A stretch of DNA of 64,000 nucleotides from the human T2T-CHM13v2.0 reference genome, Homo sapiens: the NCBI RefSeq assembly GCF_009914755.1, contig NC_060925.1. One strand, 5' to 3'. The position numbers and the translations under genes are program-made. Shown here piece by piece: positions 7,039 through 14,920 of the stretch. Each line of letters begins with the position of its first letter. The stretch's first letter is position 1. Under the pieces are notes generated by a model. The model was not told the origin of the DNA and did not search any database. It was given only the letters and a program-made list of their open reading frames with translations.

Positions 7039-7357
7039 CCTGCTTTCACTCTTGCCCCTCCACTCTGCCCTCCCCACAGCATTACTGACCTCCACAAATA
7101 CACCTCTGATGGTGTCACCCTCCCACTTCAGTCCTTCCAGAACTTCCTGTTGCTCTCAGATAAAAGCAAAACCACAAACATGGTGATGGGGTTCAGGACA
7201 TGCTACTCCAAAATATGGCATCTAGACACTGGGGAAAATGGCAGAAGTAGAAAGGTCATTCTCACTTTCCCCCTGCCATTCTTCCCTGAAGCGGGCCATA
7301 CCACCTGGGAAGGACTCTCTGACCTTCCCCTAAAGCTGTTCATAAGACCGTCATTCA

Positions 7358-8285
7358 AGACCAGGTGCAGTGGCTCAAGCCTGTAATTTCAGCACTTTGG
7401 GAGACTGAGGTGTGAGGATTGCTTGAGGCCAGGAGCTCAAAACCAGGCTAGGCAACATAGTGAGATCCATGTCTACAAAAAATTTTTTTTAATTAGCCAG
7501 GCACAGTAGGATGCACCTATAGTCCCAGCTGCTCAGGAGGTTGAGGTAGGAGGACCACCTGAGACCAGGAGGTCAAGGTTGCACTGTCAGAGACATTCGA
7601 ATCAGAGCAACCCCATCTTGAATAGGCAAAATAAGGCTGAGACCTGCTGCACTGCATTCCCAGGAAGTTAGGCATTCTAAGTCACAGAACAAGATAGGAG
7701 GTCCACAGAACTGGTATCAGAAGATACAGGTCATAAAGACCCTGCTGATAAGACAGGATGCAGTAAAGAAGCTGGCCAAAGTCCATCAAAACCAAGATGG
7801 CAACAAAAGTGACCTCAGGTCCTCCTCAGTGCTCATTATACACTAATTAAAATGTATTAGCATGCTAAAGGACACTCCCACCAGTGCCATGACAGTTTAC
7901 AAATGCCATGGCAATATCCAGAAGTTACCCCAGATAGTCTAAAAGGGGGAGGAACCCTCAGTTCTGGGAATTACCCACGCCTTTCCTGGAAAACTCAAGA
8001 ATAATCCACCTCTTTTTTAGCATATCATCAAGAAATAACCATAAAAATAGCCAGTTAGCAGCCCTCAGAGCTGCTCTGTTTATGGAGTAGCCATTCTTCT
8101 ATTTCTTTATTTTCCTAATAAACTTCTGTTCACTTTACTCTGTGGACTCACCCTGAATTATTTCTTGGGCAAGATCCAAAAACCCTCTCTTGGGGTCTGG
8201 ATCAGGAACCTTTTCCAGCAATAGCACCACTGCACTCCAACCTGGGTGACAGAGCAAGACCATGTCTCAAAAAAAGAAACAAAAA
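7358..8285 (+). mobile_element. AluJ interrupted by MER41 LTR (Alu at 7358-7584 and 8224-8285)
   Basis: Alu right arm breaks at GGTTGCAC and resumes GCACCACTGCACTCC; degenerate TSD AAGACCGTCATTCA/AAGATCTTCGTTCA. Confidence 0.9.
7585..8223 (+). mobile_element. MER41B-like solo LTR
   Basis: TGTCAGAGACATTCGAATCAGAGCAACCCCATCTTGAATAGG start, AATAAA, CTCTTGGGGTCTGGATC end; 4-bp TSD GCAC. Confidence 0.9.
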
Positions 8286-10476: not shown

Positions 10477-11476
<1,000 letters not shown>

Positions 11477-12054: not shown

Positions 12055-12718
12055 TGTAACCTCCCAGCAGGTTCTTCCTGCCCGCTACTCAAACAAAATC
12101 CATTCACCAAGACCATGGCATTGCAGTAAAGAGAGAGTATAATTGACACGAAGCTGGCCACGCCACAAGGGAGATGGAGTTATTACTCAACTCAGTCTCC
12201 CCGAAGGCTCAGAAGTTAGGAGTTTTTCATAGATAGTTTGGTGAGCAGGGGCCTAGGGTAGGGGCATGCTGAGTGATTGGGTTGGAGATGAAATCAGAGA
12301 ATCTCTTCTCTTTGGCTGAGTCAGTTCCTGGGTGGGGGCTCCAGGTGGAGCCATCATCGTCAGGAATGCAAAAACCTGGAAAGACATCTCAAAAGGCTAA
12401 TTTTAGGTTCTACAATAATGATGTTATCTGCAAGATTATTTGGGGAAGTTGCAAATCTCATGACCTCTGGAATAATGGCTAGTAATTATTTAGAATCCAA
12501 GACTCTCTCATCCTCTTAATTTGGTGGTCTTTCATTTGTCTTACAAGAACAGTTTAGTTTTGGGGAAAGGCTATTATCATTTAAACTATAAACTAAATTT
12601 CTCTCAAAGTTAGGTTGGCCCATGCCCAGGAATGAGCAAAGACAGTGAGGCTAGAAGCACAGTGGAATCAGCCATGTCAGATTTCTCTCACTGCCGTAAC
12701 TTTGCAAAAGCAGTTTCA
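12055..12718 (-). mobile_element. LTR26/LTR8-group solo LTR
   Basis: TGTAAC...TTTCA termini with perfect ATAT TSD; paralogous to 10477-11476. Confidence 0.85.
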
Positions 12719-14244: not shown

Positions 14245-14920
14245 AGTCAGGGGCGTTTGAACAAGAGTGACTCCATCTTGAATACAGGGTGGTTAAAAAT
14301 AAGTCTGAGACCTACTGGGCTGCATTCCCAGAAGCTTAGACATTCTTAGACACAGGATGAGATAGAAGGTCGGCACAAGATACAGGTCACAAAGACTTTG
14401 CTGATAAAACAGGATGCGGTAAAGAAGCCGGCTAAAACCAAGATGACTATGAAAGTGACCTCTGATTGTCCTCACCGCTCACGATATGCCAATTATAATA
14501 CATTAATATGTATTGTCATGGCGCTGGGGGGTGATATGTTAATTATAATATATTAATATGTACTGTCACGGCACTGACACTCCCACTAGCGCCATGACAC
14601 TCCCGCCAGCGCTATGACAGTTTACAAATGCCATGACAATGCCAGGAAGTTACCTTACACATTCGAAAAAAAGGAGAGGGACCCTCAGTTCCAGGAAATC
14701 TCTGTCGCATTCCTGGAAACTCATGAATAATCCTCCCCTCGTTTAGCATAAAATCATACTCAGTTGAGCAGCCCCCACTGCTGCTCTGCCTATAGAATAG
14801 CCATTCTATTATTCCTTAACTTCCTTAGTAAACTTGCTTTTATTTTACTCTATGGCCTTGCCCCAGATTCTTTCTCGAACCCTCTCTTGGAGTCTCCATC
14901 TGAACCCCTTTCCAGGAACA
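14245..14920 (+). mobile_element. MER41(B-like) solo LTR nested in the provirus
   Basis: GTCAGGGGCGTTTGAACAAGAGTGACTCCATCTTGAATA start; homologous to 7585-8223; TSD GCCC/GCCG. Confidence 0.9.

What the first reader, a model, noticed from the sequence alone, without database searches (positions are those of the whole stretch)
7585..8223. MER41B-like LTR with intact tandem STAT1 GAS sites
Seen: TTCTGGGAA (7962-7970) and TTCCTGGAA (7983-7991), both perfect TTC-N3-GAA, starting 21 bp apart. Established: MER41B copies with these tandem GAS sites act as IFN-gamma-inducible STAT1 enhancers (e.g. the MER41 upstream of AIM2). Inference: this copy may be an active interferon-inducible enhancer.
Basis: partly seen in the sequence, partly recalled or inferred. 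Interest (0 to 1): 0.7.

Follow-up and report, generated by a model that had tools for sequence, protein, structure and literature searches.

The report
Old MER41B-type solo retroviral LTR
This is an ordinary, roughly 50-million-year-old leftover end-piece (solo LTR) of an ancient primate retrovirus that still carries two interferon-type STAT1 binding motifs, but nothing here shows that it is an active switch.

Summary
TTCTGGGAA (7962-7970) and TTCCTGGAA (7983-7991) are present with starts 21 bp apart. 7585-8223 is exactly one 639-bp LTR: it starts TG, has a 4-bp flank repeat GCAC/GCAC, and sits inside an older Alu, so it is a solo LTR.

It belongs to a large dispersed family (at least 40 full-length copies at 80-82% identity). 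It carries the 43-base stretch holding both motifs, which 24 of 29 shorter relatives lack. Print gives that stretch as the MER41B versus MER41A difference. It is 80.9% identical over its length to a copy near IFI6 that print calls MER41B. Family in print: ERV1, HERVW9 group, internal part MER41-int.

Its own branch length is 0.103 substitutions per site, about 47 My at a recalled rate of 2.2e-9 per site per year. Print gives 45-60 My.

Keeping both motif cores is what neutral decay predicts: 16 of 52 relatives do, against an expected 0.29-0.31. Both sites lack a CpG inside the 9-mer. No gene lies within 37 kb and no RefSeq regulatory element overlaps. Enhancer activity could not be tested here, and print shows only a minority of such copies are occupied. 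Verdict: a known kind, of low interest.

The parts
7585..8223 (+). Solo LTR, 639 bp, MER41 family, B type
   Evidence: Starts TG and is full-length against at least 39 other copies at 80-82%. Its ends are in register with relatives. It has 2 CpG against 28.7 expected.
7581..7584 (.). Left copy of the 4-bp flank repeat GCAC (target-site duplication)
   Evidence: In the family, 13 of 24 tested copies repeat their left 4-mer at the 3' end, against 0.98 in permuted flanks.
8224..8227 (.). Right copy of the 4-bp flank repeat GCAC
7952..7994 (+). 43-base stretch (LTR positions 368-410) that holds both motifs. It is absent from the shorter relatives (A type).
   Evidence: 24 of 29 copies picked on the 3' 210 bp lack it. 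50 of 52 copies picked on the whole LTR or on the 5' 300 bp carry it. Print: PMC9963469.
7962..7970 (+). GAS-type motif 1, TTCTGGGAA
   Evidence: The same 9-mer is in 14 of 52 relatives, and the core is kept in 32 of 52.
7983..7991 (+). GAS-type motif 2, TTCCTGGAA
   Evidence: The same 9-mer is in 11 of 52 relatives, and the core is kept in 30 of 52.
8005..8030 (+). Stretch matching 23 of 26 letters of the MEME motif M2 from STAT1-bound sites, which print says resembles MER41B
   Evidence: 0 expected by chance. The motif was read in PMC2897888 Table 1.
8041..8049 (+). A/T-rich TATA-like stretch, 50 bases after motif 2 (inferred promoter box)
   Evidence: The identical 9-mer is in 11 of 52 relatives and TAAAA nearby in 25 of 52. 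The role is inferred from usual LTR layout.
8117..8122 (+). AATAAA polyadenylation signal of the LTR; it fixes the + orientation
   Evidence: Kept at the aligned place in 35 of 52 relatives.
7355..7584 (+). Left piece of the host Alu that the LTR split
   Evidence: RefSeq repeat mask 7355-7585. It maps to positions up to 245 of a neighbouring Alu.
8224..8285 (+). Right piece of the same Alu, with its A-rich tail
   Evidence: It maps from position 259-262 of the same neighbouring Alu. About 12-16 Alu positions are absent at the junction.

Best explanation
This is a decayed solo LTR of the primate MER41 endogenous retrovirus. In print that family is ERV1, class I gamma-like, HERVW9 group, with internal part MER41-int. 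This copy is of the B type. A provirus integrated into an Alu about 45-60 million years ago and made a 4-bp duplication. Its two LTRs later recombined and left one LTR (inferred from the matching flanks). The LTR has since drifted neutrally and lost nearly all its CpGs. The two STAT1-type motifs were part of the family's U3 region. Their cores survived here by the roughly 3-in-10 chance that neutral decay allows. The copy is therefore a latent STAT1 docking site. If chromatin allowed it, interferon-gamma-activated STAT1 dimers could sit on the two sites two helical turns apart and recruit co-activators, as print shows for a subset of MER41B copies. At this gene-poor place the most likely state is an unused relic. 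My estimates, which are judgement rather than calculation, are about 0.25 that STAT1 occupies it in some stimulated cell type and under 0.1 that it regulates a gene. Shown here: family, type, bounds, solo state, age and motif retention. Inferred: the recombination history and any binding.
For: Family and bounds: (TG start in 40 of 52; 4-bp flank repeat in 13 of 24 against 0.98 permuted). B type: the 43-base stretch is present here and in 50 of 52 close relatives and absent in 24 of 29 short relatives. Print states that a 43-bp deletion removes the STAT1 motif from MER41A (PMC9963469). Print also gives a 21-bp spacing for the MER41B consensus (PMC2897888). The LTR is 80.9% identical over 606 columns to the LTR 18 kb from IFI6, a place where print names MER41B copies (PMC6292174). 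The printed M2 motif matches at 23 of 26 letters. Solo state: the same Alu lies on both sides with GCAC on both flanks. Age: star-tree branch 0.103 K2P, family median 0.097, which is 47 My at 2.2e-9. The host Alu sets a primate-age ceiling. Print gives 45-60 My. Neutrality: both cores are kept in 16 of 52, and in 8 of the 29 copies picked without regard to that region, against an expected 0.29-0.31. CpG count is 2 against 28.7 expected. Group names: PMC5753468 Table 4 and PMC4724089.
Against: No Repbase or Dfam comparison could be run, so B against the rarer D, E, F and G types rests on abundance and on likeness to print-named copies. Print gives MER41E the same 21-bp spacing. The AIM2 element, which a review calls MER41B, matches this LTR over only 60 bases at 73%. 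The SECTM1-upstream MER41 gives no significant match: the only hit at E <= 0.01 was a 39-base, 82% stretch about 4.5 kb from that pair. So printed names cover very unlike copies. The age depends on a recalled rate; slower rates give 69-86 My, and subfamily structure inflates star-tree branches. The flank repeat could be coincidence, because about 12-16 Alu positions are missing at the junction. Nothing here measures binding. The motif pair, the spacing and the strong family-wide induction in print (almost 20-fold more tags) leave real room for activity.
Confidence: 0.85

Rival explanations
1. One reading: this copy is an active interferon-gamma-inducible enhancer. STAT1 binds both sites cooperatively and raises transcription of a nearby gene.
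For: Both cores are kept at the 21-bp spacing of the MER41B consensus. MER41B shows almost 20-fold more STAT1 ChIP tags after interferon-gamma in HeLa cells (PMC2897888). Deleting single copies lowers AIM2 and IFI6 induction (PMC9963469; PMC6292174). The lack of a RefSeq regulatory row is uninformative, because the two IFI6-side copies lack one too.
Against: Retention equals the neutral expectation. Neither site holds a CpG, while the top STAT1 motifs in print do, and motif 1 reads TTCT in one half-site. Print reports 292 STAT1 sites in MER41 against 7190 copies, and occupancy below 18% even for top-scoring sites. In cattle, 1071 MER41_BT copies have a motif but only 101 are inducible (PMC9435751). 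The nearest genes, IGSF21 and KLHDC7A, are 37 and 65 kb away; I recall neither as a classical interferon-stimulated gene.
Confidence: 0.1
2. It is a constitutive placental (trophoblast) enhancer bound by GATA2/3 and related factors, independent of interferon.
For: Print: MER41A/B/C/D are enriched in placental H3K27ac enhancers, and those copies differ from the interferon-induced ones (PMC10069462).
Against: No gene is close. I did not scan for those factors' motifs.
Confidence: 0.04
3. 7585-8223 and the related LTR at 14245-14920 are the two ends of one provirus, and the 6 kb between them is its degraded interior.
For: They share orientation and family, are 76.6% identical, and both carry the motif pair.
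Against: The first LTR has the same Alu on both sides and its own GCAC/GCAC flanks. The second has its own flanks, GCCC/GCCG. The outer flanks of the pair (GCAC, GCCG) do not match. The second LTR's best relatives are a different set of copies. The interval holds Alus and copies of another repeat.
Confidence: 0.01

Closest known systems
MER41B LTR (ERV1; HERVW9 group; internal part MER41I / MER41-int)
   Same: About 630-640 bp with TG start and 4-bp flank repeats. It carries the 43-base stretch with two GAS-type motifs 21 bp apart and the M2-like stretch after them. It is 80.9% identical to a print-named MER41B copy near IFI6.
   Different: Nothing found that sets it apart. It shares a 12-base stretch (LTR positions 120-131) with only 22 of 52 relatives, so it belongs to a sub-lineage. 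The formal library match was not run.
MER41A LTR
   Same: The 3' 210 bp are 85-88% identical to the short copies, closer than the LTR as a whole is to any copy.
   Different: The short copies (about 530-550 bp) lack LTR positions 368-410 with both motifs, and also positions 250-287 (24 of 29). This LTR has both stretches.
MER41.AIM2, the element upstream of AIM2
   Same: A pair of TTCNNNGAA motifs 21 bp apart at the matching place of a MER41-like remnant.
   Different: Only a 60-base, 73% match to this LTR, and 15 of 30 family copies give any hit at E <= 0.001, over 32-92 bases. In T2T it lies about 0.5 kb from the RefSeq start of an interferon-induced gene (print says 220 bp). It overlaps a RefSeq 'active region' enhancer. 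Its function is shown in print, which I saw only through a review.
MER41B copies beside IFI6
   Same: Full-length alignment (positions 1-631) and a motif pair 21 apart.
   Different: They lie 18 and 23 kb from an interferon-stimulated gene, contact its promoter, and one was deleted with an effect (PMC6292174). The present copy has no such neighbour.
MER41_BT of cattle
   Same: A MER41-like LTR family with GAS motifs, a subset of which are interferon-gamma-inducible enhancers (PMC9435751).
   Different: A separate germline invasion in another mammalian order. Not compared by sequence here.

Membership tests
MER41 LTR family (ERV1) | Dispersed multi-copy element of LTR size with TG start and matching 3' end | tested here: met
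   4237 first-look candidates. 40 were scored and all 40 match; 39 non-self copies span the LTR at 80-82%. TG start in 40 of 52. Ends are in register.
MER41 LTR family (ERV1) | Short (4-bp) target-site duplication, as retroviral integration leaves | tested here: met
   GCAC/GCAC here. 13 of 24 relatives repeat the left 4-mer, against 0.98 (maximum 5) in 1000 permutations. Caveat: 12-16 Alu positions are missing at the junction.
MER41 LTR family (ERV1) | Likeness to copies that print names MER41 | tested here: met
   80.9% over 606 columns to the IFI6-side LTR (name from PMC6292174). The printed M2 motif matches 23 of 26 letters. Only weak matches to the AIM2 and SECTM1 elements.
MER41 LTR family (ERV1) | Best match to the Repbase/Dfam MER41B model (RepeatMasker call) | not testable with these tools
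   No repeat library is on hand. RefSeq's mask carries no names and does not cover the LTR.
MER41B as against MER41A | Presence of the 43-bp stretch with the STAT1 motif (print: PMC9963469) | tested here: met
   Present at 7952-7994. Absent in 24 of 29 short relatives. Present in 50 of 52 close relatives.
MER41B as against MER41A | Two GAS motifs 21 bp apart (print: PMC2897888; MER41E has the same spacing) | tested here: met
   It does not exclude MER41E, which covers 135 kb against 1069 kb for MER41B.
MER41 (age and host range) | Anthropoid-primate-specific, 45-60 My | tested here: inconclusive
   Branch 0.103 gives 47 My at a recalled 2.2e-9 and 69-86 My at slower rates. It is inserted into an Alu. 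No other primate genome is on hand to check the orthologous site.
Interferon-inducible STAT1 enhancer | Induced STAT1 occupancy and an active chromatin mark | not testable with these tools
   No ChIP or accessibility data here. No RefSeq functional row overlaps it, but the IFI6 copies lack one too.
Interferon-inducible STAT1 enhancer | An interferon-induced target gene within reach | tested here: inconclusive
   No annotated gene in the window. IGSF21 ends 37 kb upstream, KLHDC7A starts 65 kb downstream and PAX7 is 215 kb away. That none is a classical interferon-stimulated gene is my recollection, not a call.

The most novel reading that the evidence does not exclude
The two MER41-type solo LTRs 6 kb apart (7585-8223 and 14245-14920), each keeping a 21-bp motif pair, might together form a primate-specific interferon-responsive enhancer cluster. 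It would act on KLHDC7A, IGSF21 or an unannotated transcript in this gene-poor interval.
Probability: 0.05. Interest if true: 0.35.

Novelty: already known. Interest (0 to 1): 0.1.

Why it matters
It matters little by itself. The family, its motif pair and its co-option by the interferon response have been in print since 2010-2016, and this copy adds no new feature. The useful result is a caution. A kept motif pair in a MER41B copy is what about 3 in 10 copies show by neutral survival, so the motifs alone do not mark an active enhancer. If binding data did show induced STAT1 here, it would be one more of several hundred such sites, of interest only if it could be tied to a gene.

Tried and rejected
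Chance origin of the pair is rejected.

One provirus with the second LTR is rejected on the flanks.

AIM2 element as a naming reference: fetched, but it matches only over 60-92 bases, so it cannot type this copy.

SECTM1-upstream element: it has a pair 21 apart at L074 5184/5205 but no significant match to this LTR. The only hit at E <= 0.01 was a 39-base, 82% stretch about 4.5 kb from the pair.

IFI6: print says a MER41B lies '~20 kb downstream'. I found none in the 40 kb on the gene's 3' side. I found two on the other side, 18 and 23 kb beyond the transcription start. I take these for the printed copies; the direction mismatch is unresolved.

ISRE-like GAAANNGAAA: none in the LTR on either strand.

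RefSeq regulatory rows as evidence of inactivity: dropped as uninformative.

Literature link of MER41 to KLHDC7A or IGSF21: 16 papers hold 2 of the 3 terms. Of the 10 listed, none holds MER41. I did not see the other 6.

Chuong et al. 2016 could not be read. I know it only through citing papers.

Supplements are closed and I did not ask for them. The STAT1 peak lists of PMC2897888 (Files S1, S2) and the tables of PMC6292174 and PMC10069462 may list this very copy.

Rows dropped before counts:
- L012 and L023 were cut to their first 640 bases because a second copy adjoins them, and were left out of the flank test.
- 3 further copies whose match starts after position 3 were also left out of the flank test, so 24 of 29 were tested.
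- 6 loci of the second sample were duplicates of the first and were counted once, giving 52 distinct relatives.

Full report
**1. Observation**

The + strand reads TTCTGGGAA at 7962-7970 and TTCCTGGAA at 7983-7991. Single TTCNNNGAA matches are not enriched in the window: 29 seen against a mean of 23.85 in 100 shuffles, and 19 of 100 shuffles reach 29. Pairs with starts exactly 21 apart are enriched. There are 2 (7962/7983 and 14689/14710) against a mean of 0.002 in 500 block shuffles, of which 1 had one pair and none had two. Both pairs lie at matching places in two related elements, so they are inherited and did not arise by chance.

**2. Anatomy**

7585-8223 is one 639-bp unit.
- It starts TG at 7585. 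It ends at 8223, where its relatives end in the same register.
- GCAC stands just before it (7581-7584) and just after it (8224-8227).
- The flanks are two pieces of one Alu. The left piece (7355-7584) maps up to position 245 of the Alu at 10779-11130. The right piece maps from position 259-262. The same order is seen against a second Alu. About 12-16 Alu positions are absent at the junction.
- The host Alu is only 71% identical to neighbouring Alus, which are 81-83% identical to each other. It is therefore an old Alu, and the LTR is younger than it.
- An AATAAA at 8117-8122 (kept in 35 of 52 relatives) and an A/T-rich box at 8041-8049 fix the + orientation. They place the two motifs in the U3 part, about 50-80 bases before the box. 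The U3/R/U5 reading is inferred from usual LTR layout.
- With one Alu on both sides and matching flanks, this is a solo LTR. That a provirus collapsed by LTR-LTR recombination is the standard inference; it is not shown here.

**3. Family**

The reference genome holds many copies.
- With the whole LTR as query there were 4237 first-look candidates. 40 were scored and all matched, and 39 non-self copies were at 80-82% over nearly the full length.
- TG starts 40 of 52 aligned relatives (9 do not reach the start).
- 13 of 24 tested copies repeat their left 4-mer at the 3' end, against 0.98 (maximum 5) in 1000 flank permutations. So the family makes 4-bp duplications, and most sampled copies are solo.

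Print gives the following, all read as passages.
- Schmid and Bucher 2010 (PMC2897888) state that the MER41B consensus has two high-scoring GAS sites 21 bp apart centre to centre. MER41E has the same spacing; MER41A does not. MER41B gains almost 20-fold more STAT1 tags after interferon-gamma.
- Their MEME motif M2, said to resemble MER41B, matches 8005-8030 at 23 of 26 letters, with 0 expected by chance.
- A review (PMC9963469) says MER41A differs from MER41B by a 43-bp deletion that removes the STAT1 motif.

I tested that last statement directly.
- Of 29 copies picked with the 3' 210 bp alone, 24 lack 42-43 bases at LTR positions 368-410. That is exactly the stretch holding both motifs. They also lack positions 250-287.
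- Of the other 5, 3 keep the stretch and 2 are fragments.
- Of the 52 copies picked with the whole LTR or its 5' 300 bp, none has a 42-43-base gap confined to 368-410; two lack part or all of the stretch for other reasons, one through a 66-base gap and one through truncation.
- So this LTR is of the long, motif-bearing type, that is, B rather than A.

Raviram et al. 2018 (PMC6292174) name MER41B copies beside IFI6. I found two MER41-like LTRs 18 and 23 kb beyond IFI6's transcription start and none in the 40 kb on the other side. The nearer one aligns over positions 1-631 and is 80.9% identical over 606 columns. That is as close as this LTR's typical relative (median 82.8%).

Group names come from Kojima 2018 (PMC5753468 Table 4): ERV1, group HERVW9, internal part MER41I (MER41-int), with LTRs MER41A, B, D, E, F and G. 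Vargiu 2016 (PMC4724089) places it in the class I gamma-like supergroup HERVW9.

Not done: a match to the Repbase or Dfam models. B against the rarer D to G types therefore rests on abundance (MER41B 1069 kb against MER41E 135 kb) and on the likeness above. Naming did not need inner genes, and I read none.

**4. Age**

From pairwise Kimura distances among 53 sequences (1378 pairs), a star-tree least-squares split gives this copy a branch of 0.103. The family median is 0.097 and the range is 0.045-0.144, so this copy ranks 35th of 53. The transversion-only branch is 0.029 against a median of 0.030.

At a recalled neutral rate of 2.2e-9 per site per year the branch gives 47 My. At 1.5e-9 and 1.2e-9 it gives 69 and 86 My. 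The slower rates overshoot the ceiling set by the host Alu, because Alus are confined to primates (established knowledge).

Print gives 45-60 My for entry into anthropoids, or after the anthropoid-prosimian split (PMC9435751), and 83-91% likeness to consensus. That fits a branch of about 0.10. The LTR has 2 CpGs against 28.7 expected, the mark of long germline methylation.

Biases in this estimate:
- The relatives were picked for likeness to this copy.
- Subfamily structure inflates the branches.

**5. Are the motifs 'intact', and does that mean use?**

Among the 52 relatives the TTC-N3-GAA core is kept at site 1 in 32, at site 2 in 30, and at both (always 21 apart) in 16. Among the 29 copies picked on the 5' 300 bp, which does not include the motifs, both are kept in 8. 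With a branch of about 0.10, the chance that 12 fixed bases all stay unchanged is 0.29-0.31, and for 6 bases it is 0.54-0.56. Observed and neutral values agree. Retention here therefore carries no sign of selection.

The exact 9-mers of this copy are shared by 14 of 52 relatives (site 1) and 11 of 52 (site 2). A CpG inside the 9-mer survives in only 4 of 52 (site 1) and 5 of 52 (site 2), and not in this copy. The top STAT1 motifs in print do contain one (M1 in both the complete and the repeat-filtered set). Site 2 still fits TTCC-N-GGAA; site 1 has TTCT in one half.

**6. Likelihood of activity**

- In stimulated HeLa cells, print reports 292 STAT1 sites in MER41 annotations, against 7190 copies in the genome.
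- Sites above the score cut-off are occupied at under 4%, and the best-scoring sites at under 18%.
- In cattle, 1071 MER41_BT copies have a GAS match and 101 are inducible.
- There is no annotated gene in the window. IGSF21 ends 37 kb upstream, KLHDC7A starts 65 kb downstream and PAX7 is 215 kb away.
- No RefSeq functional row overlaps the LTR or lies within 5 kb of it. The same is true of both IFI6-side copies, while the AIM2 element does overlap an 'active region'. This absence therefore says little.
- My estimates, which are judgement rather than calculation: about 0.25 for STAT1 occupancy in some stimulated cell type, and under 0.1 for regulation of a gene.

**7. Verdict**

This is a real, correctly bounded, correctly named relic of a well-known family. 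The motif observation is confirmed. The enhancer inference is untested and, on priors, more likely wrong than right. It is a known kind of low interest.

Noticed in passing
window 14245-14920 (+): A second MER41-type solo LTR (676 bp) lies 6.0 kb downstream in the same orientation. It has its own motif pair 21 apart (TTCCAGGAA at 14689, TTCCTGGAA at 14710), flanks GCCC/GCCG, an M2-like stretch at 14731-14756 and an internal 44-base direct repeat (14483-14526 / 14533-14576). It is 76.6% identical to the first LTR. Its best relatives are a different set of copies and match it in two pieces, because about 90 of its bases (positions 262-351) are missing from them.
   Followed up: partly
window 10603-11393 and 12180-12650 (+): Two copies of another dispersed repeat of about 490 bp, 74-88% alike, start about 1.58 kb apart. 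The first is split by an Alu (about 10793-11113). The genome holds many copies at 74-81% (2491 first-look candidates). The layout resembles the two LTRs of a small LTR retrotransposon. The family is not named.
   Followed up: partly
window 7585-8223 against the RefSeq mask: The RefSeq soft-mask rows cover the Alu up to 7585 but not the LTR itself, nor the second LTR. These old LTRs are invisible to that mask.
   Followed up: no
window 7704-7715 (LTR positions 120-131): A 12-base stretch is present in this LTR and in 22 of 52 long-type relatives. It is absent in 30 of 52, in all 25 sampled 3'-picked copies that reach that place, in the IFI6-side copy and in the second window LTR. It is a sub-lineage marker within the long type.
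   Followed up: partly
L033, L035, L044, L054 (copies on C16, C15, C2, C5): Four of the 29 copies picked on the 5' 300 bp stop matching at LTR position 527-530, just before the AATAAA. This is either a shared 3' truncation or a different 3' end.
   Followed up: no
L013 and L019 (C6:61419184-61419798 and C6:57184660-57185280): Two copies on chromosome 6 differ by only 0.03 and share the same 19-base 5' truncation and flanks. They are a duplicated segment, not two insertions.
   Followed up: no
L074 5184-5213 (C17, about 5.1 kb upstream of SECTM1): The MER41 element that print places 5 kb upstream of SECTM1 has a motif pair 21 apart. It is so diverged that this LTR gives no significant BLAST match at that place. 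Printed MER41 names cover very unlike copies.
   Followed up: partly
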